From Balanoglossus misakiensis (taxonomy: Eukaryota > Animalia > Hemichordata), in assembly GCA_040954595.2 (NCBI GenBank), contig CM082595.2:124001-188000 (forward strand): DNA of 64,000 bases. Reading direction: 5' to 3'. The position numbers and the translations under genes were made by a program. Of this stretch, positions 21,790-63,000 are shown piece by piece. The notes under the pieces were generated by a model, which was given only the letters and a program-made list of their open reading frames with translations, was not told where the DNA came from and ran no database searches. How positions within the stretch are numbered: the stretch's first letter is position 1; the number at the start of each line of letters is the position of its first letter.

Positions 21790-24385
21790 ACTTGAAGAAT
21801 TAAACCTGGTTCCCTTTCACTCAACTGTTCATAAACAGAAAAACAAATACAGAAAAAGATTTTAAAAAACACAAAAAACATGTTTTTGTACATTCTGTTC
21901 TGGTGATGGTTTGTGGGAAAAATATATTTTAGTCACTTTTTGATGCTCTTGGCCGCCAATAATTTACCAGCCCACTATTTAGGAATGTATGTACCGGTAT
22001 AAAACAACACTAGATATCTAACCAAGTTGACATACCAACTTTGATATCTTGTTCATCTCAAGTGTGGGTAAACGTATGACTAGCCAAACTCAACAGTCTG
22101 ACCCCCAGATTAACTGTCTATATGTGCATATTGTAATCTCTTCATTATCAATTGACCAGGTCAATCTGGTTTACAAATCACTCATATCGCTAACCACGTA
22201 AAATTTCACTTGACTCATGTCTAAGTTGCTATGTTTTCAAAAAATGCAAAGTTAAACATTTTCTATGAAGTCTTCATTAATGAGAAACAATGTTCAGACT
22301 CTGTTCAGACTGCCAAAACAAGCTTAGAATTTCTTTAAGTACAAAATTCATTATGGCAAGAGAACAAAACTTATAGAAGTTTCAAAATTTTGTTAAAATG
22401 ATAATGTATTTCATTTGTATTTCATAGTTATATTCTTCAACTTACCGAGTAAATCTTCAATTCAACAGGATGAAAAATTCATGGAGTTGTTCGAGTCCTT
22501 TTCCAGCAGATCACAGCAAGAATTTCTGATAGAGAATGCAAACATACATGTATACATGTATTTGTCTCAGGAAATGAAAAGTAAAAGGATTCGGTTGTGA
22601 ATATTAATTAAAAGTAGTATGATTACGCAACAAAAACGGATGCGAAAATACAATAGACACAAAAAGTCGTTTGAAAGAAGCGTTGTTAGAGAAAGTGTTT
22701 ACATGATTGTTGTGCAAATGACAACCCTGAATGACCCATGACCCTGGGTAATTTAAAAGTCCGACGTTTCACGAAGCAGCGGCGTGTACACATCAGAAAT
22801 ATACGTTTGCGTCTTTCACAGAATACGTTGCGGCGGACATAGTCAATTTCACAGGCTGATATTGATATGCACTAAGTATCCCTGGGAAAGAAATGCTACA
22901 GTCTGTTCATAATTTACAAATATTCACTTATTTTGGGATGATGTTTATACGCACGCCGATAGCCCCATGCAGTGAGTGCGGTTAGGTGCAGACGTTCGCA
23001 ACGGAACAAATTTCACTGCATGCGATGTCATTCGGTCACGTCGGCAACGTTTTCTTTAAAAAGAGCAGTTGTCGTTAAAGTATGGTTCGTACTATTTAAT
23101 GACAATACATAAAACGACCATGAACACTTCTTAAAAACCGTAAATAACCTGTGAACATGCATGCGGATAGACGGCTTACCCTGACTATCTCAGCGACTGA
23201 CTCACAATAAAGAGGCCTAACCATTCTGTACGCCGTGTATAAATACCCGTTGACAATATATGCAAAAATACCCCCTGCAGAGTGAGCTCCAGCCATTCAT
23301 TGAGCTCGCTTATGTAGAAATTTGCATACATTACAAATCGCCATTTTCAGTGAAATATCGCCTATTTTGGTCTCATAGATATTATAGAATACTTTCACAT
23401 TTGGCTTGCGGTCTGAGCATTAGTGTATGGGTCTCCCGAAGTCACAAATACCTTCCGCAATATCAACCAAACTGCTAAAGACATAAACACTTAAAATCGT
23501 ACGCACGGAGCGCCATCTACGACACTCGCACATCACGTATATTATCTTTCGTTTACGTCATTTCCATGACTGAGTACGATCAAGGTTGATCACAAGAGTT
23601 TAGTTATTGCGCATACTATTTTGTTAAGTTCTGGCCGTCACGGGATGGTAAAAGTCTAGCCTCTCCGTTTTGCCGACTTTGAAATCTTTGGTGATTTTGT
23701 CATTTTTAGACATTATTCATGACGAAATAAAAGTACTGTACAACATTTCGGTTATGTGTCAAATTTTATTATCCGGAATATTTTAAAAGGTAAAAGTAAA
23801 ACTCGCTGCGTAAGTCTAAGACAATTGTACTGAGTGGGCGTCTTCAATCGGGATGTATACCTTCTCCTCCATAGTCTGCAAAGAACGGAAAGGTTAAGAA
23901 GCATCATCTCGTGCAATAGGCCTACTTGTACAAGTCCACGCTCACATCAGCTTCGGTGTATAACGAGTCTTTCATGCGGTGATCTGTCAAGCTGTCAGCA
24001 GAGCTTACAACCTTTGTACTTGCAGTTTACTGCCCTCTCCGTGACCCTTGGCGAGACAGCCGGGGTAACTGCATTCCAATGACTTATGCTATGCTATGCT
24101 ATGCATATGGCCGACACCGTCGATGGTGGTGACCATGTCTAGCTCCACGAAAATATGAAGACGACATATAGACGAATTATTATTGTGCATGTATATGTGG
24201 CCCAATATTTTAGCAATGAAAAAATGGATTGTGCACGACCCGCGTGGTATATTAAAACTTTTTGGTTTGACGATTTTTCTACCAATACGTAGTCAAGGCA
24301 ACTGTTTGCGCACATATTGACCGTCAGGAACGGACTATTCTTGTGTGTATTTATACAAGTGACAGAAAAACGAGGGTGTTTATAG

Positions 24386-25105: not shown

Positions 25106-25197
25106 CTACCCGATGAAAAGGTATGCCACCACTGCAACCACAACAGCATAAGTCAGCAACATCCAGCTCGCCGTGTTGGGGGCAGCACTGACAGTGA
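25106..25197 (-). CDS. Candidate terminal exon of the GH31 gene encoding a GPI-anchor signal or C-terminal TM helix
   Basis: The acceptor TTCATTCTTTTGCCTTTCAG precedes the exon. Joined in phase 1 to the donor A|GTAAGT at 25906, it reads ITVSAAPNTASWMLLTYAVVVAVVAYLFIG*. Confidence 0.65.
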
Positions 25198-25897: not shown

Positions 25898-28336
25898 TTA
25901 CTTACTGCTACGCAGACTTTTAAAGGTGTCCACCCAATTTGACGATTTCTTGTAGAAGACAGGCGGGTATCCAAGTTGGGCGTTGACCGCAACCCATTGA
26001 CCACCAGTAACATCTGTGTCGTTCCACAGGTAAACCCAGTCGTCATCGGGGAGATACAGCGTCCGGCTGGTCTGGTCTGCGTCCAAGACGGGCGCCACCA
26101 AGAGGTCGCGTCCGTACAGGTACTGGTAACCGATGTTGTATGTTTCGGCGTCATCATCGTAGTGGAGAAAGAGGGGACGTTGAGCTGGGATGCTTTGGTT
26201 GACGTGTTGTGCCACGACTTCCTTCGAGTAGTCAACAAGCGCATGGTGCAGCTGGGTCAAGCGGGCGAATTTTCGCAAAGTTCCATCGCTGTCGTAGTAC
26301 TGCCAATTTTCATCTGGCCTGTTCCCTTCGTGTGTGCGCATCATCGGGGTGAAGACGGCCATCTCGCCGGAGCGGAGGAGAAGTTCTTCCGTGCGAGCGA
26401 AGCCGAAGAGCGCCGTATACCCGCCGATATCGAAGTGGGTAAGCCCCGCCCCGAGCACGGCCATGGACAATGCTGCAGGGATGACGGATGGGAGACCATC
26501 TCCCCAACTGAAATCAACAAACTGATCACCCGCCCACATCATGGTGCTGTACTTCTGCGTTCCTGTGTAACCAGCTCGCATCCAGTAGAGGATTTCGCCC
26601 AACTTGCCACTTTCTTCCACGGCTTCTCGATTCATCCTCGCCCAGATGTACGGCCACTTGTTGTGGAGTTCCTCCGCTGTCTCTCCGCTGTGGAACATGA
26701 CATTCTTCGTGGGTAGGTACTCCCCGAAGTCTGCCATCCACCCGGACAAACCCAGATCGATCATATTCTTCTTGATGACTTCGTCTTTATACCAATTATA
26801 AGCAGCGGGGTTCGTAAAGTCGATCGTTCCGCAGAAGAACTCGCCGAAATCCGCCACGTAAGAGTCGTTTTCGGGAGTTTTAACAAAATAGCCATTCTCG
26901 TCGGCTATTTTGAAGAGATCGCCCTCCCTGTTCAAGTACGGATTGATGTACGCCAAAACTCCAATTCCGCGCGCTTTCAACTTCTCTATCTCTGTGTCCA
27001 GGTTGGGATACTGCTCTTGGTTCCACTTCCAGTTCCAGAACAGCCTCCGACCGAAGGAAGTCGTGATTCTTCCCACCCAATCTTGAATCCAGACGGCGCT
27101 CACTTCGATGCCGTATTTGTCTGCCTGGTCGATGTACTCTAGCATTGCGTCCGTGCCTCCCTGGATCCCGAGCACGGCTCCGTTGTAGAGCCAATCGGGC
27201 ATGGCCGGCATGGTGCCCAGCAGGTTACTCACCTTCTGTACCACCCCCAGCATCGTCGGTGCGGTGCCGAAGTAAATCTTCCCGGGAGTGTTGGTCCACA
27301 CTTCCAGCTCATGAAAGTACTCGTTACGAAAGTCCAGCACCGAGTACACCGATGTGTTGAAGTGACAGAAGAACTTGCGGGAGGACACAAACGTCGGTTC
27401 TGGGTAATATGTCGAATGGTAGTCGCCGCCGCCACCGTCGTTCTGGTCAGCGTAGAAGGTGGTTAGCGTGCTCTTATTCCGACCGACGCCCTGTTCTCGC
27501 GTCCACAGCGGGAAATCATGCCCACGTAGATCGAAGTACGAAAACTGCTCGCCGCCGCCATATACATGTTCGTCAACTTCGGCCAAAACGCGGATCCAGT
27601 ACCGGTTGATGACGTCAGAGGTTTGTGTGAACTCTGCGACGTTATTGCCGTCAGCATCGGTACCAAATTTCACAGTGGTCTAGAAAGATGAGTAGATACA
27701 TGATTAAGGGGATTTAAGTTGTTAAGGCCAGGGCTTTAAAAGTTTGAGAAACGACAATAACAATCGCAGTCAAACGAAATTAAAAGTCGTTAAAATGTAC
27801 ACGCCCGGAGCAAACCAGCTATGGGGTTCTTCATCACTTGTTGATTATCACCTACTTGACCACAGGTGATGCAATTTGTCTGGGATTGTAGTGTCGGTCG
27901 CAAACCCTTCTTGTTTTTCTTGAGTGAATGAAACCCCGGGGTCAGCCCAGTCACGTGACACTTTGACGTGCTCTTGGATAATTTAAGACGCCAAAGTTCA
28001 GCCCCAATAAAAATGTCGCTGCCCTCTCACCTGATATTCGGCATTTCGGGAAAAATTCACGAAATAGTCCGAGGATTGTTGGGTGACGTTGAACTCAGTG
28101 AGGCCAATGCGCTCATCCATGTACTCAGAGATCACAAAATTTCCCAGAAACTCTTCGATATCGGCTACTCCGTTGCCGGCGTAGAGAAAAGGCGATTCGG
28201 TGGTGTGACTTATCAACGTGACGTCACCCAGGGATACGGTCAGCGTCGTCTCTGTATAATCAACAACGAAGTTGCCACTGGCAACGGAGCAGTAGCAGAC
28301 CACAAGCAAGAGGGTGTGGTACAACCTCATAGCCAT
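25898..28336 (-). CDS. yihQ: Glycoside hydrolase family 31 sulfoquinovosidase (YihQ-like) with N-terminal signal peptide
   Basis: Exon 28336-28031 (102 codons, beginning with the signal peptide MAMRLYHTLLLVVCYCSVASG) splices in phase 0 to 27679-25898, giving about 695 aa. Motifs follow E. coli YihQ as recalled: GEQFSYFDLRG, EQGVGRNK, GIQGG, WIQDWVGRITTSFGRRLFWNW, WMADFGEYLP (nucleophile), MMWAGDQ (acid/base), DIGGYT and MMRTHEGNRP. Confidence 0.92.
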
Positions 28337-31300
28337 TTCGACAACCCTTTATACTGTAAAGTCCTGAAAACGAAAAAGAAAAAGAAATATTTACAGGACA
28401 AGGCCTCTTAAAAAGACTTGGAAAGTTTGAAGGACAATACTTTTCCTCTGATGGATTGTGTCCCCGAAACCCTGTAATTTCATGTTTCATGATTTGCACA
28501 TAATTCAAAAAGTTGTCAAAGGTTATAAAAATAATTTGTCAAAGGTTAAGAAAAAATATATCAAAGTTTATGGTTATTGACACTGCATCAAAGAGTTTGT
28601 CCACAGCCACTCAAAAAATGATCTCTGAATACACAAAAGTTAGATTAGAAAGATAAGTACGCTTATTAGTGAAGTGTACATGGGACAGAACATGCATACG
28701 TGCACCGTATGTCAATATCTGAGAATTTATATATTTGTGGAATGTATGATTTGGTCCATTCCTCAAACTTGAAAGGAAAGTGGACTGTCTTCGACTAGCG
28801 CTGTCAGTGAAACGAGATGACATCGTCCAGGTAAGAACAGGTCGCTCAGTCTTCGTGCGTAGCAGTTAAAAGTTTTGAGTGTCGGTCATTACACCTTTGT
28901 CGTGAGTTTATCTCTGTGGTATTTTTTGCCGGGGTGGAGACGTCCAAGAACGATCCCCCATTGTATCGCCGAGAATCGACAAATCATTGAACTCATCTGA
29001 TATGGCGACGCGGGCAAGATGGGTCCAGACGGGTCTGTGCTATGTTGTTAGGAGATGTATCTAAGTTAGCATGCGCTCTCTTCTTGCCCTTGCCAGTTCA
29101 AGTTGGAGCATTTTCCGCGTATAGGTGCGATGAAAAAGCAAGCGTTTTCAAGTGGTTAAACCACAGACCCCGTCGTATAATTGTAGTTTTGCACACTAGT
29201 TCAACTCACGTTTACATGCTCTCACAACGGTATTTGGAGCCACTGCCCCGCAGCCCAACTGTGTCGAAACTCCACTGAGTTTAACCCCAAGATACAATCA
29301 GCAACTAAAGTTGCCATTGTTCTCACTACTACCATTTTATCTCTGTTTAACTTTCATAAAAAATTGCACTCCATCACTGTCGTTCAGTTTTGATAAATTC
29401 ATTCACACAATGTCACTGATAAGATGCAAGTTACCAAGAATAAACTCACACTTCAAACAATTCAACGACAGAAAGCAGTGTGTAGGCGAAAATGGGATAG
29501 AAGGGACATTTTTCTAACGAAGTAAAAAACTAAATCAATTTGGTTTTACTGGGTTGCAGTTTCAACGGAAAACAGAGCGCTTTAAAGTACATACATACTC
29601 TGTACAAATGGCTGAAAACTGTGACCTTTCACCCTAACATGCTGACAAGCAATTGTACTTTAAAATAAATCTTCAGGGAAAACGTGCCGACACTTTTACA
29701 CGATATTCATTTCTATCAGCACACCGAATCCCTCATTCAGGTTTCTTACTTTTCGTTTTAGTTAAGAAGTCGGTAAAATCTTCCTCATTATTCTTATCTG
29801 AAAACACTTCGAAAATACCTCTATCCATAATTGATTATTATGTTCCTTCTAAAACCAAACTATTTTCCCCACTGCTTTTCTGACTCAAAAAGTGGTAAAA
29901 ACTGATGCCCGGCAACTGTTTATAGTGCCCAATATTTAAAATTTATCAGCTTCTTAATATAAATCAGATTTTTACTGCCTTCTGTGCCTGGAATTGGCCA
30001 CTAATACCTGTAACAATGAGACCCAGACAGCATATCCGGAGCAATTGAAGTTATATAACCTGGCAACATTCCTCAACAGAAACAGTGATGTCAATCTTTG
30101 CTACAATAGACAGTTTCCTTTTCGTCCTCGTCCCTTTTGCGTACCTGTGAATGTCGGACAGGACTATCGTGGGTGCTATATGGTCGCTAATTCGGTCAGC
30201 CGGTTATGAGTCGAACGACATTCGAAGGAGACCAAAGTAACATTGTGATCGAAGTTCGTTTGGTCGAACAAGATTAAAAGCAAAACCCAAATCAGCAACC
30301 CACCTGCACTAGAGAGCTTCAGCCTATCGCATAATATGTCAACAGTGCATGCGAAAAGAAATTCTGCCGCTCGCTAAAAATTGCTAGTTTCCTCTTGAAG
30401 TTCTCGGTTGTCTCTCTGAATAAAAACCAGTGACACCAACCCAGTACTGCGTGAAGTGTCTCTGCCCAGGGGAGCGGTTCTACCTCGCACCGTGGAGTTT
30501 GGTGTTAATAGTTAACTTTTCAGCATGATTTTATCTTGGTCCAGTGACTCGCTGATAAAAATAGACGCTATAATTTTTGTCTGCAAAGGGCCAGTAAAAA
30601 AACAGTACAACGCTCATTGGTGCGCATGCGTTGTGTATGGATTGGATTACTGGTAATTGAATTGATGTGAACTGAAATGATGTGTAGTTCCTCGTGTACA
30701 CCACAGTCCTTCAAGAAAGACGGTCGGGAATCGCCTAGCTGTAGGATGCGCATTATGGTCACGTGACCATCTTAAAGTTGCGCTTTTTCCTTGGAAGCAA
30801 GCGACAGTCGCTGTACTATCTACGATGATTTTCCCGATATGTTAGTTATGATTCAAGTAGATTCCAATTCAGTACATTAAATTCATTCGACATGTTTTTA
30901 AAGACAAGGGAAGTGCACATTTTGCGTATCAAATCGCTTCTTGTAGCACTCACGAGCATTGTAATTTTCAACTGTGGATTGTGGGCATACACATTCTGCG
31001 GGCGTTTCTGGGACAGCTTTATTTTTGACCCTTTTTTCGATGTTTTTTTCTCGATAACTGTTACCAAAAGCTATGTATGTTAACTCCAATATAACTCCAA
31101 ACAAACACATTTTGCGGGCGTTTCTGGGACCGTAGTGAAACATTTAAATATAACGCAAAGTCAAAGTATCAACGATTCTCTTCGGCAACTGGCGTTCGAT
31201 GGTGTTTCAGCCGAAAATCACGTTGCTATGAGACATTGACTCTTGTCACTCAGTGTCGAGAGAATCAATAAAATATACTTCAAATTTACGAAATATAAGG

Positions 31301-44112: not shown

Positions 44113-47100
44113 TTAAACAACACAGCATGAGTCCCACATGGCAACTGTAATTTCAAATTCATCTTGTACGAGATAAACTGCAGCTGTGTCTCCTGGAAAC
44201 ATACAAAAACAAAGAAATAGAAAATAATAAATACATTGCAGTGATCTGATAACTGAATATAGCGAAAGCGGTTTTCGGGTCTTTGATGTGATAATCATAT
44301 CCATCTTATGGTTATTTTTTTTCCGTCAACATTGTGGGGAGTTTGTACAGAAATACATATTAATACTCACCGACCCAAACACCACTGAAAGTTTCAACAT
44401 GACCTAAACCATCTGCTGGAAATGAAATGTCTTCTGCCAGAAATTGTTCCCTGAACAACGGTGACACAGAGTAAGACAGATCCTGTTCCAGGTACAGGTA
44501 AGCACGCCCTCTTCTGCCAATACCTATGCTTCTTGTCGAATTGACGCCGATAAAGTTCGACACTGATTGTACCAAACCTGTTGTAACAACCAGAGGTATT
44601 ATTTGGCCTTCTTTAATGAATATTACTTTGTTTTAAATATCCATTAAGTACAATTGTCTCCTTAATTTTGCTGAAGTATACCTATCAGGTGAGATGGGTT
44701 GGCTTTGCACTTAGATACTATAAGTTAAACATGCAGTTACAGAAATGATTCTTAATGAGACCAGAAAAGTAGTTCCTAAGCTGCTCAAATATTACTTACC
44801 GTACCAACCCTGCGAGTTCCTTGTGAAACACCTGTAGAAAAGAGCAAGTTTGATGTCATTAATGTATTTAATTTTTCGTCATGTTGTACTTTCAAAAATT
44901 GTTTTTACTAGTTGGTTATAATGTACAGTATTCAGAATTAATTATGTTAAATTGTGTAAAAAATTTACCTTTGTACCACTGTGGTGTCACAAACGGTGAC
45001 TCTCTCATCCACATCCACCAGGTAAGACCTTTCATAAAACCCTGGAAAAGTGAACAATTTCTCAGTGTTCTGGCAAATGCATTTGTTTGTGATGTCACTC
45101 AAGACAACTTTAGAGGATTGTGGAAAAAATACTTGTCTGACACCGAATGGTTGATTATTGCATTGGATTGAGCAATGAAATCACAAAAACTAACCTGGAA
45201 GTACTTCAGTATCACCGACAATCGCAGTGGTTTCCGTCGTCAGAGCTGTAAGGGTTTTTGAGAAATATCAATATACCAATAGGGCTAGTAGTGTCTCGAA
45301 ACCCGCTTAATGCTGTTCACAGCTATATTTTATTATGTAATGAGCTTGCTGTATTCAACAGCTATCAGTTTCATTTCTGACGCTATAATAAATTGGTGAT
45401 ACATATAAAATAGTCTGAAAGGAAAAGGCTGTGTGACTTACCACTGATGCTATCCATGGTGAGTGTAAATGATTCCAAAGGAAGAAAAAATGTATTTCCA
45501 TCAACCGAGTTCCACACGAGTTCAACAACACCCACGATTATGTTTGGTTCCACATCTGTTTTGTAACTGGAATCGATGGTCAGGTTTATGCAGACTCTGG
45601 ATTGTTGGGTCAACGATATATTGTGCATCTACAGAGAAAATGAACAAAACATACCCAATCGTTATCCTAAATTGAATGTTTACAACATAATTCAACACAC
45701 ACGCAACTTGGATAGAAAATTATATTGTAGCTTAAATTTACAGTATTTACTTTACCTTGATCGTCTTGGAGAAGATCTCTGAATGAAGGGACGGTGGCAA
45801 TGTCATTGCGACCCATTCTGTTAACACTACATCGGTCACAACTCCTGGCAGGTACATTTTGCATGAAACACTATATGCTTCACTCTGAGATACGGAACTG
45901 TGTATTATACTTGTGCAAAGAGTTACAGTACTGCTGCAATGGGAAACATTAATATATTTATATCAATTGTAAATATTCAGGTATATCAATTACTGCATTG
46001 TTTCTTGATTGCAAACGTTTTCTGATTATTTTAAGGAAACCTTTTTGGACCAACTTACCCTGGACGTACATTAGTGCTGGGTGAAACAGTCAAGTCGTGA
46101 AATCTCAGATTGGGATCCCCATCAATGTTTGGCGGAGACATCGTAGGCAAACTGGTTGTGGTTGGGGTTGAAGTCACTGATGTTGTCGTTGATTCTGTGG
46201 TCGCAGAACCAGTTGTATAGACTGGTGCTGTTGGTGTAGATGTTGTGAGAACATTGGTTGCCGGTGGCGCTGTGGTAGGCGCTGGGTATGTTGGCCTAGA
46301 TGTTGGTTGGACGCTGGTTGTCGTTGGTGTTGTAGTTATCCCTGGTGCTGTCGTTGATACTGTGGTGGTCGCAGAACCAGTTGTATAGACTGGTGCTGTT
46401 GGTGTAGATGTTGTGAGAACATTGGTTGCCGGTGGCGCTGTGGTAGGCGCTGGGTATGTTGGCCTAGATGTTGGTTGGACGCTGGTTGTCGTTGGTGTTG
46501 TAGTTATCCCTGGTGCTGTCGTTGATTCTGGGGTGGTCGCAGAACCAGTTGTATAGACTGGTGCTGTTGTCGGTGTGACTGCAGTTTGCCCCGGGGTTGA
46601 TGGAGCAGACGTTGACCGGGCACTCATCGTTGCTGTTGTTTTCAGCAGCGTTGTTGCCATGAGATATTTAATGGTGATGGTAAATGGTAGAGAAATAGAA
46701 CAAAATTAGATCATGGAACACATGCAAAATACACATTGTAGAAATATTCATTCAGACAGGGATTTATATTGATATGGACGTTGTACACAGATCATTGAGA
46801 GAATAAATATAAAGATTGACTCACTAGGAATGTCACAAGTATCAACAAACTGCACGTCACTGGTGATATATGAATCTGGGATGATTTCTGTGATGTTGAA
46901 CTCTGCCGTTACACCTGTGCTTGCGATGGCTTTAACGACAAAGGGAGGTGCCATTGCGGAGGGGCTTTCATAATATCCATTGCGATCCAGCACCATGGGC
47001 ACCCAGGTTCCGTCCACCAGCACTTCCATTCCGACATTGGGGTAACGGATATAAACAGGTTTGATGTCAAACCCATATATGCTAGAACCAGATCGAAACT

Positions 47101-49968
47101 GCAAAAAGGAGTGAAATAAGGGTTATCCATCAAATACAAGTAAGATGTATTGGGTTGGGTTTAAATGGGAACTCATCTCTGCATCATATATATCCACATT
47201 GCAGGGGCCAGTTAGTCATAACAGATGATCTTCCGGTCATGTTCGCCAAGTGACACAAGCAAAGCTTTGGTGCAGAGATTAACAATAATTCTAACTTGTA
47301 TGTCTTTTAAGACAATGGGCCAAGTGTTGTTTGTACTGTGTCACATGAGACGTTTTATGGAGTTCGAAAAATGCTCCTTCGTGACAGGTACCTTAAATTT
47401 GATGTTGTCCACGTATGGGCAAGGAACGACTCGCCAGGTAATAGAATCTGGTATTGTCGTCACTATGGTGTAGTATATTTCTTCTGGTATAAGAAGATCT
47501 GTCGGTTCTCCGGCCTTATAATTTTCCACAATCGTGAGAGTGGCGTTTCCAACAGGTCCTGTAACCTCGATACATTGTCCACAGTTCTGAAAGTCAAATG
47601 GCGGGAATCTGTTAGTCTCTGAAGGCTTCTAAATTCGACAAGTCTCCCTCTTTCATTCATTCATTCTTGAAAACCCACATGGATTTTATTTACTACATCA
47701 AATGCATCCAAGTCTAGTAGAATTTCTGTTTCAATTCTGGACAACTCTACCGTACATTACCAATCATTGGAATTTTTATAACTTAATGCCTACCTGGCCA
47801 TCTAGGAGATATCCAATACCAGCGATATAGGGACTCATGTCAGTGATGTCGCACCCACCACCGCTGAGAGATCCAGCCGGTTTCGCAAGTCCTGCGTATG
47901 GTCCCCCTAAATCATCACATGTGACAGACACCGTCTCTGTATAAAACAAACAACAGGGATAAAAATGTTTTTAAAGATCTTTTCCCGTAGCTGTTATCCG
48001 TAATATAAGATACATAATCGTATGTCGGTTAGTCGAGTACTTCAACGTTAAAAGTAGGCTATACTCAATCAATCAATCAATTAAGTTTAAAGTTGCATTT
48101 TACACTAGTCGAGTACAAGTACACTTTATAGTCCTGCGTGAATACAATAAACATTAATGGAGAATGATGATCACAGATATAACATCGAACTTTGGTTTCC
48201 GAATTTAGAGTCGTGCATTATGACTATATAGGCCAACAGCTGACTACATTCAAATTAAAAGTCATTTTATATATTCACAAAAACGTTACTGACAGCACGA
48301 ATCGCACAATAGATCGTTATCGGCACGAGAAATAAAACTATTGACAAAAGGCGGCCTCAGAATTGCAAGCTGATCGAATTTGTCGATTTGATCGACGAAT
48401 CCAATAAGAGGAAAAGCATTAAAGCCTCTTTCTACGACTTTCCAGACGTGTTCTTGTTTCTTTCATAAACGGGGAAACAAAATCTCCTTTGTGTGTATTT
48501 CATGGTTGAGAAGAATGGTGACTGGTATTGATTCAAAAGATGGATTTTAGCTCGTTAGTTTTTATGCAAACATTACTGCAGGTAATACAATTGGTATATT
48601 GTTAAGCCCAACATGATTTTTGTGGCGGTACATTTTGTGTGATAAAGTTCAGAATATGCAACTAATTAGCCATTTCTTTGTTCAGGTGTTTATTTGTGGT
48701 GGAATAAAATCAATTTGATTCATAATTGCTTGGCGTTTCCTCGCTTCCAGAATCAATCAAAAAATGAAAATGCATAATCTTTTCCTGTGGTGCCACATTT
48801 CCCTTAAATTGATTTGTTGTAAACCGGTCTTTCGTGGTGGTGTACAAATTCTTGAAATGTAGGTGGTTGCAAATCTCTTGAAAGTATGGTCAGTCTGCAA
48901 CACCTTATTTTGCTTTCTTATATAAGAAACCAATGTTCTAACAGTAGGATGGTATATGAGATACATCTGATACATCTATTAATCATCACCTTATTGAATG
49001 AGTGACAAAGTTAATATAAGAGAGAGAAAGAAAATGGCACGCTTTCTGTAATGAAACCCCACATGTTTGTTTGTAAAAAAATAAAGATAATTTTCCTCTG
49101 GCATGTTCATTGGATCAATACTGTGGTCAATATATTGACGTCTTATCAACAGAAAGCTTTTTAACGGAAGTAGGTGTCATAAACGCATAGTCAAAATCAT
49201 CAACAACATCGACTAAGAATGAAGCTGGTGTCATCATGAGTACATCGTACGCGTGTAACATGTTCAGATTTGGGAATGAAAATAGCAGGAGAGAGAAAGG
49301 AACAAAGGCTTTCGGTTCACCAATATCCTGGACACCCAAAATACATCAAAATCCATCTGGACCAGCTTTATGAAAGCCGTTTCCTACCTTTAAATTAAAT
49401 TTTGAACATATACGAAATATAAATGTAAATATCTGTTTATCTCAAAATTAAGTTTTACATTAATAGAATATCTCCTAATTTTCTCTGAATTATCTTAATT
49501 TAAGCAAACTATTGACACACACGATATTTAAAAACAGGATTAGCGATTTTCGAAACCCTAAAATGGGATTTAAAAATGACAGTACACACATCTTTCAGAT
49601 TATTTTGATCATTGCAGCTATCTGTTCTGCGGGGTGTTTTTTCTTACCCAAATTCCCCTTTTAAGACCTCCAAAAACACTTGCAGTACTATACATGTTGA
49701 TGATACAGAGACAAAATTCATAGAGTTGCTCATTCTTATATAGTTCTTTGGTGTAAAAAACATTTGACCAAGAAAGTTGGGATTAAAAATATGCTGTCGC
49801 GAACCTTAAATGGTACTGCACTTTTTCTTCTCCAGAAAACAAGCAGTTTCTTAGTTACAACGTGTTACAGATGTCGAAATGACCAATCAATTACTGACTG
49901 ATGAAGAAACTACACTCACCGGCAAACCAAGAAAATAACAGCAGTAGTGACAAAAACAAGCTTGCCAT
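44113..49968 (-). CDS. Secreted protein: signal peptide + expansin-like module (DPBB + CBM63) + Thr/Pro-rich mucin-like stalk + uncharacterised C-terminal region
   Basis: A phase-consistent exon chain runs 49968-49920, 47936-47794, 47586-47392, 47098-46825, 46632-46059, 45897-45756, 45628-45442, 45245-45195, 45041-44969, 44831-44800, 44577-44371, 44192-44113. Expansin-like motifs are GGGC, CGQCIEVTGPVG, ITWRVVPCP, FRSGSS, RYP...DGTWVPM and SDVQF. Confidence 0.8.
46185..46569 (-). repeat. Coding tandem repeat, 168-bp (56-aa) unit, about 2.3 near-identical copies
   Basis: TCGCAGAACCAGTTGTATAGACTGGTGCTGTT recurs at 46201, 46369 and 46537; the unit encodes TAPVYTTGSATT...NVLTTSTP. Confidence 0.95.
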
Positions 49969-51335
49969 TTCGCTGGTGGCCGAGCAAATTTGTCCAACAG
50001 GCAGGCAATGACGATATGAACTTAAGATGCCTAGCAGTGGTAAAGTGTTTAATGCGACTGGTAACTGAATCCTAGGATCGATACCTGTTTGCAAATTCAG
50101 CGAGTTTTGCCGATCGTTTGGCAGGTAATGTATACTTTATACAAGCCTGCCAGGCACGATGCTTATTGAATTATGGCAGGTCACGTGCCAAACCTGACCT
50201 GCTTATGAACAGAGGCTGTACTTTGAAAGTTAGTCTAGAGGGAGCTTTCACATCTAACAAGTTGTAATTTGTACTCGTCTCCAAAACACCAGAATCTATA
50301 ACAGAAAATGAATTATGGACACACTGTTTACTTGACCAAACGCCACTCTCCTGTGTTTACAAAGAATATGTAGCTCCAGTATGCCCAGACTTTCATCTGG
50401 CCTCTGTACACACACAACCCAATACAAGCTGTCTATGTGGAATCCATATGTTGAATTTTCTGGGGTTGAACTCATTTCATTTTAAGAAACATTAAGAATA
50501 GATGAGTTTGTACAGTGTTCTCTTTACACCATCTGACTGATCATGTCCAGAAGGTATCAACAGATACAAACGCACCAGTAAAGTACTTGCACTATACACA
50601 CCTACGGTTTCGTTGCATTTTTTAATTCAAACAATGACCAAAGAAAATGTTTTCATCCTCAAATACAACAAATGTTGCTTGTCAATAAAGTGAGTGCAAT
50701 TATATCACAAGTTACCTTGGTTGCTTTGATTAATATCATCGAAACACGCTAGGCAGATCAAATTAAAGTGCTTTGTTGTTTTTGTTCGCATTAAACACGA
50801 CTCACACCCATCAATGGTAATGCATTTTGTAGATAACACCATAATCTCTTTAAATTATTAGTGAAATTGTTTATAAGTAGTTTTGAGATGCTTCATAGTG
50901 ATGTAAATTATACTGTCTGTTGAATACTAGAGTCTTACTCGAACCCATTGTTTTCAAACATTTATTTTCTGATAGGCTGGTGATACTGAATCTTGAATTG
51001 GATACAAGACATTTTTCATTAAAAACAGACGCTTTCACTAACTTAGCAGAGATACTATGTTTTATTACTCTTGTGAAAAATATAACCTATACATGTACAA
51101 AAACTGTACTGCAGTGTGTCCTACAAAATACATCTGTCAATGCAGAGATACATAGAAAATGTCCATTGCAACAGTTACTCAATATTAATGTTTTTCGTGA
51201 AAGACGACATGCAAAGATAGTGAGATTATAATTGGATCTAATTTCTGAAGCCTTGCAATTGTTGTCTGTGTGCAATACTTGTAGTGATGTAAATGACAAA
51301 GTAGCTTATGCAAATACCGGTAAGTCACATGCTCA

Positions 51336-57556: not shown

Positions 57557-59289
57557 CGTATGTACTGGTTTCCCGTCTTTGTCAAAGTGCGACTGGAAAG
57601 AGCTGATCAAGCTCTTTATATGAGTTCATTGGCATCGATGACATCATGTGTGCACGTGTAAATGTTTTGATTTTCGCCAACATGCTGAGACTTGCATCAA
57701 GTTTGGTTGAAAGTTATTTCTTTACTCGGGATGCGATCTTGTCCTGACCGGTGAGGGCGATGATAGCATCAACTTGACTGTGTGTGCATGTACACCCTGT
57801 ATTTCTGAAAACGATAATTTAAAGGCAGTATGAGTATAAAGGGGCTGGCGGAGCTTTAAAGGTGTCCAACGGATTCTCAATGATTGATCTGTATGGAATC
57901 GTAAAACATAGCGTGACTCTTGGCGTAAGCACGATTCCCACAGCGCCGTAAACAGTAATAAAATCGAAGTTAGTGCATTGTCGTGATCACATATATCCCC
58001 CATAAATGCTTCCCAGGTGAGTTGTCAGGCGTTTACCGTTTGTAAAAACCCACGCTGGCTGTCGTAAAATGGCTAGAGCTCGAGTGAACAAAACGGGTCT
58101 ATTTTGATATTGTAATGTAAGCATCGGCTCTGAAACAACAAGCGATAAGGACACTGAAGTGACCCTTCTTTATCAGTTTCGCTTCCCGAATCTCTACTTT
58201 GATACGGGTACACTGACATGGATAGTGTTGGGTTTCCGTGACAACAGAGCTACATTAATATTATTCAGGTGATTAATGTAGTTGCCCCCGTTTCTTGCGG
58301 ATTGGAAAACCAGTTCCAACATAATAATGTACATGTGCTGCAGGAAAACACGGCTAATCCTTTTCTTATCAGCACAGGGGTAAAAAAATCAAAGTTGAAG
58401 TTATCTGATACTTTATTGTTAGTCATTTTATGATAGTGCTCTTGAAATACTATGGATGTTGTGGTAACAAAAGGAAAAAGAAAATTGAGGGAGAAGATTA
58501 CGCGAATCTGTATTAATTTTACTAATCACTAATGCACCAAAGGGATTGATCCAAACCCATTAATACTGTGTGCAAATAGAGGCTTATCTGGGTTCCTTAG
58601 GTTTTTCTCGTTGATTGTGAGTTCTATCCTTGGATGTAGCTTTAAGTTTTAATCAAAGGCGCAATGCAGTTATCCCATCCAGGCAAAGCGTGGCATCATA
58701 TCGCCATCTTCAAGGCTTCTTTTCCCATTACGATGGCTGGTGCAATTTTCACAACCAAGGTTAACGAGCTTGGATTTTGAGTATCACTGTGAACTAACAG
58801 CATACAGTCATAATTGCAATTTTGTGTGATAGGAAAAGGAAAAGTGCCACGCACACACAAAGGGGAAGGCAGTAATGACGGAACACAATTAAGAATCCAA
58901 TTTTCAACAAAATTCGTTCCGATGATTTGGCATTCATTCTTGGAAAATTATTACTGCGGGTTTATGACCATGTACCACATATTGTGTCTGCACACACCCA
59001 AGAATAATGCTATACATAAAGCTCGTGATAAAATCACGCTAACCTGGGTAAAAGAATCGTGAAATCACATGACAGCGTGACGTCACTATATTCAGAGAAA
59101 TCCGCAGCTTTAAGTATTTCTCACGCATAGTATGGATGGTTGTATTACTGAGCGGTTGCAGCGCATCGTCTGCTGCCAATGAATTTCAGTGATAGCGCAC
59201 GTGTCAATCGAATATCACTATTTTATTTCTGTACTACACAGGCTAATGCGGTACTCAGATAGCATGTTTTTCTGTCGGGTCGAGGCGAC

Positions 59290-60090
59290 ATGACATCGAA
59301 CGCGAGCGAAGCGGATGCCGAGGCTATCGAGTATGGAAACGCGGTCGCCTGGACCGCTGTGGTGGCGGTGAGCATCGTGCATAACCTCGTCTGCATGCAT
59401 GTCGTCGCCGAGTACACGGAGAAATGGAAGAGCAGTCATATGCTCATCTTCTCGCTGGTGCTGACGGAGTTCTTCAACTTGACCATGCCGCTGGCCATCA
59501 TGTCCATCATGATCGTGTCCAGATCCCAATGGAACACCACCAGCTGCCAGTTTCTGCTGTGGAGCCTGCTGACGTTTCGCGTGGTGGTGGCTCTTCATCA
59601 GGCCTTCCTGGCGCTCGACCGTGTGTGGTTTCTCAAGTGGCCGTCGGCCTACCGAGTGCACTTTGCGGCTCACCGAAGCAGCAAGACAGTGGTCTTCATC
59701 TGGCTGCTGAGCACACTGGCCGGATTCATGCCCATCCTCGGTTGGGAAGACACCCGTAATGCCGACGTTCAAGTCAACGGCAAGTGTCACATCTTACTCT
59801 CCGACATGGGACTCGGTTATGCGATCTCGCTGGAGATTCTCCTCTTGCTGACGCTCGGCGTCGGGACGACGTGCATCCTGGCCGCCGTCGTCGGCATCGC
59901 CTGCAAGTCGTCCAGGAACACCAGGCGTCGGCGAAGCTACCGCATCCCGTCCATAGTGATAGAGAGCGAGACGGGAGAAAGAACACCGGCGTTTGATGGA
60001 ACGATTGACGGGCGAACGAGCAACCAAGTCTGTCTACTTGTCTGTGTTCTCGTGCTGACCAACTACCTGGTCGATGGTGTACCTTTCGTT
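59290..60090 (+). CDS. Class A orphan GPCR, GPR153/GPR162-like; first coding exon (TM1-TM6), remainder not found in the window
   Basis: There are six hydrophobic segments. KWK after TM1, WNTTSCQ, LDRVWFLKWPSAYR, IWLLS..MPILGW and the ICL3 motif IPSIVIE...FDG resemble GPR153/162. A donor GTT|GTAAGT lies at 60090. Confidence 0.8.
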
Positions 60091-63000
60091 GTAAGTTATC
60101 TCTTAGTTATCACTCAGGCGTCGCCTGGGTAACAGTCGCTAAGGTAACAGATGAAGGTGCAATTTTTAAGTCTGGAATCTAAAGTGATAAATTGCTGAAT
60201 GTGCAATAATTTAATGTTTGCCTATTTCCGTGTTGAAAGTTCATGCAGATATCCTATTCATAAAATACACAAAATGTGTACTGATGTTTACCAGAAACCA
60301 TCAGTGCATCTACTAATGGACTAACAATGTGCCTACACCGTTGCATGCGACGGTGTTACAGTTCTGTGAAATCCGATCGTGAAATCGACACAGAAATCTA
60401 TCAAGGAGAAAAAAACAAATCCTGCGGCTATGACTTTGCACGGAATATGACTACAAGTTGTTTTTGTGACATATGTAGCCACAATAATGAAACCAGTTTA
60501 GAAAACTAGTCGTCATTGAATGAAAAAATGTAATAATCCAAGTTGCATGATTGACACAACGCATCGTTTCGCGTTCGCCTCGGAAATTGCCATTTGAAAA
60601 CCGCAATATATCACACGATATTAACATTCATGACGCGCACGCGTATTTCATAATTAATCTACCGAGTCAATCAATGCAGAAGTTCACATACGCGTGAGAT
60701 CTTCGTGGAATTGTGATCGGTTTCGGCAACGGCTATTGTTCCGCTGGACAGTACTAATCAACTCAATGAAGTGACCCTTCAATAATTCACCTGCTTGTAA
60801 ATTACTCTCATTTCTCTTCTCACAAAGACGAATACACAAGCGGATCATGCCAGATGGGCGTGCGTGGGTGATGACGCGTCGCCCATGGCAACCATGCACG
60901 CGTCTGGGGTCATTAATGTATTTGTACACATATCGGCAATGAAAACGTCCCTGCCCGGTCGCATAATTTGATGTATGCTGTGAAAAACGACATGGATATC
61001 TTTACTTCATGTGGTGCGGGTTTATTTTCCATCGCTTTTATGCCCTCTCCCTACCGCCTCATTTCTATATCTGTCTGAGAGAGGGAACACTGTTCACCAC
61101 TTACAGATAAGGCACTGCATCAACGTCACACAGGCATGATCGATACAATGAAAACTTACATGTCTCGAGGCTTTTATCTAAGACACTTTGATATCCCTTG
61201 ATATCAATGTTCGACCTTTGATATTTCCAGTAAGAGTCACGCATACAGAGTTTAAAGGTAGCTTGATCACGTGTCCCTGAAGGAAAATACTGTTCGTGTG
61301 CCGTATCGCTGACATTAGGCAATCGTGTGTCGTATACACTATTGATCATGATGACACATTTAATTTGTATGACGCTACGATGTCATATCGAGCACAGGTT
61401 TGAACAATGCAATGTTCGCCACTCAATGAACCGGTACGGTATCTATATACTAATAGCAAAGTTGTCTTTCATGTAAAAGATTCAGTTCTAAAATGAGCAT
61501 AATCGATTAAGTTTCATCATACCAGGGTCAGTATGTCCTGTGTAATACTTGCATACTAGTATAATGGTCAAGTATTAAATATAGTTAATGTTACTTGAAC
61601 CATGCAACGTTTTTGTGCCAACCGGGAAAAAATCGTGAAAAGTACTCGACGGGGTCCCTTTCTGCTTCATTTACATCGCAAATTCGAACCTTGTGACGCA
61701 AACCACTCTCTAGATAACAAAGTAAGTGAATTTCGGCTCCATTAAAGAGAGAAGAATTTTATTTCCAGGCAAGTAGGCAATAATTACGCTTGAGGAAACA
61801 CGGCCACAGCCAACGGTACATATTGTGAAGAAACACGACATTGCAAGTGATCTACTTGAGAAATGCTGAAGCCACAAACCATGGCAAATTTCCATAAACT
61901 ATATTGTGATCTGTCGTAGGGGAAGTGAAACGGAAGCCTTTGGTTCCACGTCATAATTTCTGGATTTTAATGGCATGCCGTTTCTATTTTCGCTATTCTT
62001 TTATGAACGTCGCCATTTCTTTAGATATTGACAAATAATGAGTTCGGGTCATCTTATCCCGAAGACGTGTCTTCAAAAAGTTCAGTTGCATTGACCTTTG
62101 CAGAGAAACTATATGTTCGTGCCTAAACAAGTTCAAGGGTAAATATAACCAAGGTAATTTGTATGGATATCGACTAAGGAATCGTGCCGAAGCTAAATAG
62201 AGAAAATGCAATAAGTCGACGCAAATATGCCTTTCATTCAATATGCAGATTTCCAATCCAGACTAGTAAAACTGAATCAGTGAATGTCACATTAAAATGC
62301 CATTTCTGACAATGGGCGCTTTAAATGGCCAAGGTTATATCTCGAAAAAGCTAACACCTTCAAGCTGCATTCGTACAATAATTGTTTCATTTCTGTCAAG
62401 CACGGGCTTTGGATTCGCGCAATGCAGTTAATTTGATTTTCATATACTGATTTCTACCGGGAATTAACGAGCATGTTTTAATATGCTAATTATATTCATG
62501 GTTGATACAGTAAGGGGAGAATTACCCATAATTGCTATATCGAAAATACACACAACAGGACCTTTCCGATTAACAGTTTCGTGCATCCATCAATTTCAAA
62601 AAATATTCAGGTTTTTGCCCTTGGCAGTTATGCATGTTGTAAACTGGATTCACAAATGTAAAATGTCAGGTTTGACGTCAATGCTATATTTCAAATATCA
62701 AAACACCTAAAAGCTTTCCACACGACACCCAAGTCAAGGCTGTCACTGTGGAAGAACTTCTCTGTCTTGAATAAAAAATAACACATTTACTCCGTGGCCG
62801 TAAGCTCTCTATGAGCGATAAGAGTGTATGGTCCCCATTTTTGCAAATCAAAATGCACCGGAAATTAAAAATAGTGAGAGAAAGTACAATATTCTTTTGA
62901 GAAAACTTGTAACAAAGACAGTTGGTATTCTACGTATGCAGGGTACTGATGACTGACTTAGCACATCTGGTCATGTGATCAGACTGAGCCAGTTTGGTTA

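What the first reader, a model, noticed from the sequence alone, without database searches (positions are those of the whole stretch)
25898..28336. Intron-containing animal sulfoquinovosidase (bacterial YihQ-like GH31) fitted with a signal peptide
Seen: a 695-aa GH31 encoded by two spliced exons, with a further splice acceptor upstream near 28363, embedded between ordinary animal genes. Established: YihQ-type sulfoquinovosidases release sulfoquinovose from the plant/algal sulfolipid SQDG and use an Arg/Trp/Tyr sulfonate-binding triad. The equivalent segments are present here (RRLFWNW, DIGGY), as are QDW, GIQGG and both catalytic Asp motifs. The protein follows E. coli YihQ collinearly from the N-terminus to the last helix as I recall that sequence, and does not resemble animal GH31 maltases or GANAB. 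Inference: the gene is horizontally acquired or patchily retained and lets an algae/detritus feeder attack sulfolipid itself, a step normally attributed to microbes. No sulfoglycolysis genes are in this window, so the released SQ may cross-feed gut bacteria.
Basis: partly seen in the sequence, partly recalled or inferred. Interest (0 to 1): 0.88.

Follow-up and report, generated by a model that had tools for sequence, protein, structure and literature searches.

The report
Acorn-worm sulfolipid enzyme with switchable tails
An animal, likely an acorn worm, carries an intact, intron-bearing gene for a bacterial-type enzyme that likely cuts the sulfur sugar off algal sulfolipid; this family is already reported in aquatic invertebrates, but extra end exons here are predicted to give secreted, membrane-anchored or possibly ER-retained forms.

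Summary
The gene is real but not new in kind. It encodes an intact YihQ-type GH31 (E 9e-213 to E. coli YihQ, all seven published key residues kept) and is 84% identical to a Ptychodera 'sulfoquinovosidase-like' protein. A February 2026 preprint already describes this family in 65 animal species, hemichordates included, with signal peptides and gut expression; it reports no enzyme assay. Its stop codon overlaps a splice donor (25905), and three further exons match Ptychodera isoforms: an 11-residue exon ending in VDEL, a membrane-anchor exon and a basic tail exon. The VDEL exon is the only one of 2314 acceptor-like candidates in the window that ends in [DE]EL. KDEL and HEEL ends occur in urchin and crinoid relatives. 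The preprint does not mention this; ER retention is untested, and ADEL fails in human cells. In my trees animals form one clade inside prokaryotes; grouping with an ichthyosporean copy is rejected (p 0.0007), grouping with ciliates is not (p 0.60). An ancient acquisition is likely; a recent one is excluded. No RNA data were available. The scan's earlier notes returned only E. coli clusters.

The parts
28337..28363 (-). Untranslated start of the first coding exon, behind a strong splice acceptor; the upstream 5' UTR exon was not located
   Evidence: Pyrimidine tract and CAG before 28363
28031..28336 (-). Coding exon 1 (102 aa): predicted signal peptide (about residues 1-21) and start of the N-terminal beta domain
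   Evidence: Hydropathy peak 2.6 (no SignalP was run); NCBIfam PRK10426 positions 11-89, E 3e-10; 54% identity to Ptychodera P0003
27680..28030 (-). Intron, 351 nt, GT-AG, phase 0
   Evidence: tblastn of four hemichordate relatives breaks at this point
25906..27679 (-). Coding exon 2: GH31 barrel and C-terminal beta domain, with Q301, R314, W317, D419, D487, Y523, H552 (E. coli YihQ Q288, R301, W304, D405, D472, Y508, H537)
   Evidence: model pLDDT 93, TM 0.97 and rmsd 1.0-1.5 A to solved sulfoquinovosidases
25898..25905 (-). Phase-1 splice donor GTAAGT overlapping the read-through stop codon; unspliced, it gives the 695-aa tailless form
   Evidence: three Ptychodera isoforms diverge at the same residue
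25617..25651 (-). Alternative last exon A: 11 residues ending in VDEL-stop (predicted 704-aa form, ER-retrieval-like end)
   Evidence: Same junction and length as Ptychodera isoform X3, which ends in ADEL, 5 of 11 identical; the only one of 2314 acceptor-by-phase candidates and of 5523 stop-ended frames in the window that ends in [DE]EL
25106..25197 (-). Exon B: short spacer and hydrophobic segment; ends at its own stop (723 aa, GPI-signal-like) or is spliced on from an internal phase-2 donor at 25109
   Evidence: tblastn of relatives' last 75 residues against the window: Saccoglossus E 5e-4, Glandiceps E 0.002; 19-residue hydropathy 2.2
23752..23875 (-). Exon C: basic tail after the membrane segment (predicted 763-aa type I membrane form)
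   Evidence: 60% identity over 35 aa, E 7e-7, to the tail of Ptychodera isoform X1; phase fits the donor at 25109

Best explanation
This is an intact, spliced gene of an animal, likely an acorn worm, for a YihQ-type GH31 protein that is predicted to enter the secretory pathway and likely hydrolyses sulfoquinovosyl lipids from algal food, with alternative last exons predicted to decide where the enzyme ends up. Mechanism, inferred from the conserved residues: retaining double displacement with D419 as nucleophile and D487 as acid/base; R314, W317 and Y523 hold the sulfonate, and Q301 and H552 contact the sugar. Products would be sulfoquinovose plus glycerol or (di)acylglycerol. The animal would keep the lipid part and the sulfo-sugar would go to microbes; this last step is taken from the preprint's clam data and was not tested here. 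One donor at 25905 can give four predicted ends: none (soluble), VDEL (possibly retrieved to the ER), a GPI-like anchor, or a membrane segment with a basic tail. The gene was likely acquired once from bacteria at or before the bilaterian ancestor and inherited since.
For: Family: (839 bits against a cut-off of 553). Key residues: of 46 animal sequences aligned, Q288, R301, W304, D405 and D472 are kept in 46, H537 in 45, Y508 in 37 (F in 8, gap in 1). Host-encoded: GT-AG introns and spliced animal neighbours; 84% identity to a protein on a 47-Mb Ptychodera contig. Secretory adaptation: 7 N-glycosylation sequons; 0.86 per 100 aa in 25 animal proteins against 0.19 in 16 bacterial. Tails. Gut expression of orthologues in four molluscs and amphioxus: preprint. 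Origin: 27 animal-group rows form one clade (100) inside prokaryote rows; animals plus Abeoforma rejected, p 0.0007.
Against: Splicing of exons A-C in this species rests on homology and a null count only. ADEL is not a retrieval signal in human cells and is mostly secreted; VDEL is not mentioned (PMC8248988). The Lytechinus counterparts of the Diadema KDEL gene end in KDEPCS or KDKPCS, so the signal is not kept there. Animals plus ciliate rows as one clade is not rejected (p 0.60, and the constrained tree scored 5.4 log units higher). The sister of animals changed between trees, so no donor can be named. Both ML trees are quick searches without bootstrap. Some prokaryotic relatives also have hydrophobic N-termini.
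Confidence: 0.78

Rival explanations
1. The family is an old eukaryotic inheritance, or moved between eukaryotes, and was lost in most lineages; no bacterium-to-animal transfer is needed.
For: A Paramecium homologue exists, and animals plus ciliate rows are not rejected as a clade (p 0.60). Reviews report GH31 sulfoquinovosidase homologues in algae and other eukaryotes (passages). My lists show only the best 120-150 hits per search, so protist copies may be hidden.
Against: Paramecium is 65% identical to a Firmicutes protein but at most 54% to the five best-scoring animal ones, and groups with Firmicutes-like rows in both free trees. The one unicellular holozoan copy found (Abeoforma) lies in a distant, Chloroflexi-containing clade and is rejected as sister of animals.
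Confidence: 0.25
2. The enzyme's main job is inside the cell: an ER or lysosomal form removes absorbed or recycled sulfolipid, and digestion in the gut lumen is secondary.
For: Conserved xDEL exon in two ptychoderid-like species. [DE]EL ends occur in 5 of 23 ambulacrarian sequences, from Ptychodera, Antedon and Diadema, against 0 of 22 other animal and 1 of 397 remaining sequences. KDEL and HEEL are accepted retrieval signals.
Against: Most animal sequences end in a hydrophobic anchor. ADEL is secreted in human cells. Three of the five are near-identical Diadema proteins. Databases favour long isoforms, so the counts are biased.
Confidence: 0.2
3. The animal enzyme has drifted to another alpha-glycoside, and the sulfonate pocket is a relic.
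For: No assay of an animal member was found; GH31 holds many activities.
Against: The Arg and Trp of the sulfonate pocket are invariant in 46 of 46 animal sequences spanning protostomes and deuterostomes. E. coli and Agrobacterium GH31_13 enzymes show no detectable activity on pNP-glucoside or pNP-xyloside (PMC12780224 passage).
Confidence: 0.08
4. Bacterial contamination or a recent, lineage-specific transfer.
For: GC3 0.68 against 0.40-0.42 for REV1 and MTHFR stretches.
Against: Spliceosomal introns shared with Ptychodera isoform junctions, placement beside hemichordates at support 99-100, and a host GPCR stretch in the window with GC3 0.74.
Confidence: 0.01

Closest known systems
Animal sulfoquinovosidases of aquatic invertebrates (Uchida et al., bioRxiv 10.64898/2026.02.11.705467)
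   Same: Same family, key residues, signal peptide, GPI or membrane tail, and the same digestive and cross-feeding proposal; Hemichordata are listed.
   Different: The main text has 0 hits for KDEL, intron, fung- or choanofl-, kept only the longest isoform and raises transfer only for rotifers. Alternative last exons, xDEL ends and the origin of the main animal clade are not treated in the text; figures and supplements were not seen.
Ptychodera flava 'sulfoquinovosidase-like' XP_070561501-3 (isoforms X1-X3) and XP_070561505
   Same: 82-84% identity; isoforms diverge at the same residue into a membrane plus basic tail, a short end and an 11-residue xDEL end.
   Different: Two copies on one contig there, one in this window; ADEL there, VDEL here; the names are automatic annotation.
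E. coli YihQ (5aed, 5oht), BmSQase (8r56), E. rectale (6pnr) and Agrobacterium (5ohs) sulfoquinovosidases, GH31_13
   Same: 48-53% identity in structural alignment, TM 0.96-0.97, all catalytic and sulfonate-binding residues.
   Different: Those act in the cytosol as the entry step of bacterial sulfoquinovose breakdown; this gene has introns, a predicted signal peptide, sequons and spliced tails, and no such neighbours.
Animal GH31 glucosidases (GANAB, maltase-glucoamylase, lysosomal alpha-glucosidase, MYORG)
   Same: GH31 fold and secretory-pathway location.
   Different: E 7e-21 or weaker against 9e-213 for YihQ.

Membership tests
GH31 sulfoquinovosidase (YihQ type, GH31_13) | Whole-protein match to the YihQ family above its curated cut-off | tested here: met
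   NF007746/PRK10426 839 bits against 553; other GH31 models fall below their cut-offs
GH31 sulfoquinovosidase (YihQ type, GH31_13) | Catalytic nucleophile D405 and acid/base D472 | tested here: met
   D419 and D487; numbering from the preprint's Fig. 4 legend
GH31 sulfoquinovosidase (YihQ type, GH31_13) | Sulfonate-binding R301, W304, Y508, with Q288 and H537 | tested here: met
   R314, W317, Y523, Q301, H552
GH31 sulfoquinovosidase (YihQ type, GH31_13) | Fold closer to solved sulfoquinovosidases than to other GH31 | tested here: met
   TM 0.96-0.97 for ranks 1-23 against 0.78-0.82 for other GH31; predicted model of exon 2 only
GH31 sulfoquinovosidase (YihQ type, GH31_13) | Hydrolyses sulfoquinovosides and not glucosides | not testable with these tools
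   Needs an assay
GH31 sulfoquinovosidase (YihQ type, GH31_13) | Formal CAZy subfamily assignment | not testable with these tools
   No CAZy models held; the subfamily paper is not held
Animal sulfoquinovosidase (Uchida et al. 2026) | Falls in the animal clade | tested here: met
   With hemichordates at 99-100, animal clade 100
Animal sulfoquinovosidase (Uchida et al. 2026) | N-terminal signal peptide | tested here: met
   Hydropathy and alignment to relatives only; no predictor available
Animal sulfoquinovosidase (Uchida et al. 2026) | Expression in digestive tissue | not testable with these tools
   No RNA holder was listed
KDEL-receptor cargo (ER-retrieved luminal protein) | C-terminal K/H/R-DEL or HEEL signal | tested here: inconclusive
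   Exon A ends in VDEL, the Ptychodera isoform in ADEL; ADEL fails in human cells but works in S. pombe. Diadema KDEL and Antedon HEEL fit
Horizontally acquired animal gene | Nested in bacteria with eukaryotic monophyly rejected | tested here: inconclusive
   Nested; animals plus Abeoforma rejected, animals plus ciliate rows not

The most novel reading that the evidence does not exclude
Acorn worms and echinoderms have built an ER-resident sulfoquinovosidase more than once, by an alternative last exon in ptychoderids and by a KDEL paralogue in Diadema, from a gene taken from bacteria by the bilaterian ancestor. They would then break down sulfolipid inside their own cells as well as in the gut, which implies an unrecognised animal sulfolipid turnover or detoxification pathway.
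Probability: 0.25. Interest if true: 0.72.

Novelty: new member of a known kind. Interest (0 to 1): 0.43.

Why it matters
Sulfoquinovose release is treated as a microbial step in a flux of about ten billion tonnes a year (abstract listings). An animal enzyme would add grazers and deposit feeders to that cycle, but this is already proposed in a 2026 preprint. What this locus adds is testable: one gene with four predicted tails is a ready system for asking where animals cleave sulfolipid, and an ER-retrieved form would point to handling inside cells. The rejected link to the ichthyosporean copy bears on the open question of where the animal gene came from.

Tried and rejected
No genome is held for the window, so the search for downstream sulfoglycolysis genes was limited to a Pfam scan of 70 frames of 90 aa or more, taken from the 85 listed; none appeared. 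No RNA holder was listed; this is no evidence. The protein atlas did not answer in eight tries. Abayakoon 2018 and Arumapperuma 2023 are not held; Speciale 2016 was not read. A scan of species genomes with the apparent sister protein P0024 gave only 51-61% matches and named no donor. The clade test on 81 rows and the careful tree on 44 rows did not finish. A large relative clade with hydrophobic N-termini looked eukaryotic, but its named members are mostly Chloroflexi, plus a Desulfobacterales and Abeoforma. GC3 as a sign of foreign origin was rejected. No transposon-like repeats flank the gene. The main text of the hemichordate genome paper has no hit for yihQ, GH31 or glucosidase. Earlier scan notes returned only E. 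coli clusters or unrelated items.

Full report
Observation. The minus strand holds a 306-nt coding exon (28336-28031) and a 1782-nt open frame (27679-25898), separated by a 351-nt GT-AG intron in phase 0. Neighbours with Pfam hits are an ASIC-type channel, SCO1, MTHFR, an ABCB transporter, REV1 and a 7TM receptor, most of them in several exons (70 of the 85 frames were scanned). The host is inferred to be an acorn worm from its nearest relatives: Ptychodera 84 and 82%, Glandiceps 74%, Saccoglossus 73%.

Family. The large exon matches solved sulfoquinovosidases at E 6e-217 to 6e-192, other bacterial GH31 at 1e-41 or weaker, and GANAB and maltase-glucoamylase at 7e-21 or weaker. It passes the NCBIfam YihQ cut-off (839 against 553 bits). 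The seven residues that the preprint lists as critical map to Q301, R314, W317, D419, D487, Y523 and H552. Of 46 animal sequences aligned, five of these positions are invariant, H537 is kept in 45 and Y508 in 37, with F in 8 and a gap in 1. A model of the exon (pLDDT 93) superposes on sulfoquinovosidases at TM 0.96-0.97 and on other GH31 at 0.78-0.82. This adds little beyond the sequence match.

The stop at 25898 overlaps a GTAAGT donor at 25905 in phase 1. A Ptychodera gene has three database isoforms that diverge at this same residue: X1 with a membrane segment and basic tail, X2 with three residues, and X3 with 11 residues ending in ADEL. The window holds counterparts of X1 and X3. Exon A (25651-25617) gives 11 residues ending in VDEL, 5 of 11 identical to X3. 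Exon B (25197-25106) gives a hydrophobic segment that matches the Saccoglossus and Glandiceps tails (E 5e-4 and 0.002 within the window). An internal phase-2 donor at 25109 leads in frame to exon C (23875-23752), 60% identical to the X1 tail (E 7e-7). Predicted lengths are 695, 704, 723 and 763 aa. As a null, exon A is the only one of 2314 acceptor-by-phase candidates on both strands, and the only one of 5523 stop-ended frames, that ends in [DE]EL. I noticed the ADEL end in Ptychodera before looking for it in the window. No RNA evidence was available.

ER-like ends elsewhere. [DE]EL ends occur in 5 of 23 ambulacrarian sequences (Ptychodera ADEL, Antedon HEEL, three Diadema KDEL), 0 of 22 other animal sequences and 1 of 397 other sequences over 500 aa. 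In Diadema the KDEL form is a separate paralogue; its Lytechinus counterparts end in KDEPCS or KDKPCS. Against ER retention of the hemichordate forms: ADEL does not work as a retrieval signal in human cells and is mostly secreted, though it works in S. pombe; HEEL is called canonical; VDEL is not mentioned (PMC8248988, passages). The exon is conserved; its function as a retrieval signal is about even odds at best.

Origin. A first FastTree used 261 core regions after 13 short matches were dropped. An IQ-TREE quick tree of 81 chosen rows puts 27 animal-group rows (25 named, the window and one unnamed) in one clade at 100, inside prokaryote-type rows behind branches at 93, 95, 97 and 95; hemichordates, echinoderms and molluscs each group together, while deeper order is imperfect. 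E. coli and Agrobacterium were not in the trees; Serratia and Hafnia stood in. Paramecium and one unnamed row group with Firmicutes-like proteins; Paramecium is 65% identical to Tepidibacillus and at most 54% to the five best-scoring animal proteins. The ichthyosporean Abeoforma lies in a distant clade whose named members are mostly Chloroflexi. On 44 rows, animals plus Abeoforma is rejected (p 0.0007), but animals plus the ciliate pair is not (p 0.60; the constrained tree scored higher). These groups were named after the trees were seen. The sister of animals changed between trees. No sponge, cnidarian, choanoflagellate or fungal name appeared, but only the top 120-150 hits of each search are shown and most are unnamed, so this is not absence. 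One acquisition from bacteria at or before the bilaterian ancestor is the simplest reading (about 0.65); older eukaryotic inheritance remains open; a recent transfer or contamination is excluded.

What is known. bioRxiv 10.64898/2026.02.11.705467 (parts 1-5 of 7 read, the main text up to the references; figures not held, supplements closed) reports homologues in 65 animal species of nine phyla including Hemichordata, signal peptides, GPI and membrane anchors, digestive-organ expression, no downstream pathway genes in Tridacna, and cross-feeding of microbes. It reports no assay, kept the longest isoform only, and raises transfer only for rotifers. Its supplementary trees may include non-animal eukaryotes that I could not see. 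A molluscan survey lists sulfoquinovosidase among GH31 activities (PMC7560691, passages). PMC12780224, PMC13436972 and PMC4729200 were read as passages. Searches for sulfoquinovosidase with 'invertebrate', 'endoplasmic reticulum' and 'horizontal gene transfer' (listings only) showed no title on an animal enzyme assay or an ER form; subscription journals are largely missing from the library.

Mechanism. Shown: gene structure, residues, fold, conserved tail exons, animal clade. Inferred: secretion, retaining hydrolysis of sulfoquinovosyl lipids, gut expression, use of the four tails, fate of the sugar, origin by transfer. The best reading is a digestive sulfoquinovosidase whose location is set by splicing.

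Verdict. A new member of a family described in 2026, with a corrected gene model and one unreported feature, the conserved xDEL alternative exon. Interest 0.43, down from 0.88.

Noticed in passing
window about 46050-50100, minus strand: A spliced expansin-like gene in an animal. Two successive exon frames match NCBIfam expansin_EXLX1 in order (47344-47628, model 38-108, E 2e-7; 46751-47122, model 106-193, E 1.5e-5; both below the whole-protein cut-off), and the four best PDB hits of the first are expansins. A Thr/Pro-rich repeat frame follows (46055-46705), and candidate upstream exons lie near 47776-47970 and 50050. A second microbial-type, possibly diet-related gene 20 kb from the finding; distribution and literature not checked.
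   Followed up: partly
P0016, P0125, P0126 (Diadema); P0006 (Antedon); P0023, P0127, P0128 (Lytechinus): Sea urchins have two sulfoquinovosidase paralogues, one with a hydrophobic anchor and one soluble; the soluble one ends in KDEL in Diadema but not in Lytechinus. The crinoid protein ends in HEEL.
   Followed up: partly
P0464 (Paramecium sonneborni), P0448 (unnamed): Ciliate YihQ-like protein 65% identical to Firmicutes proteins, a likely separate acquisition from bacteria; not separated from animals by the clade test.
   Followed up: partly
P0185 (Abeoforma whisleri) and the clade of P0180-P0305, P0326-P0444: A large, little-named clade of YihQ relatives with hydrophobic N-termini, many with Gln in place of the sulfonate-binding Arg; named members are Chloroflexi, a Desulfobacterales and an ichthyosporean. 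Possibly extracellular sulfoquinovosidases.
   Followed up: partly
P0467 cluster: A Thermoplasmatota archaeal YihQ homologue with a hydrophobic N-terminus, close to the main bacterial group.
   Followed up: no
window 59263-60132 (+) and 25898-27679 (-): Long exons with GC3 0.74 and 0.68 beside REV1 and MTHFR stretches at 0.40-0.42.
   Followed up: no
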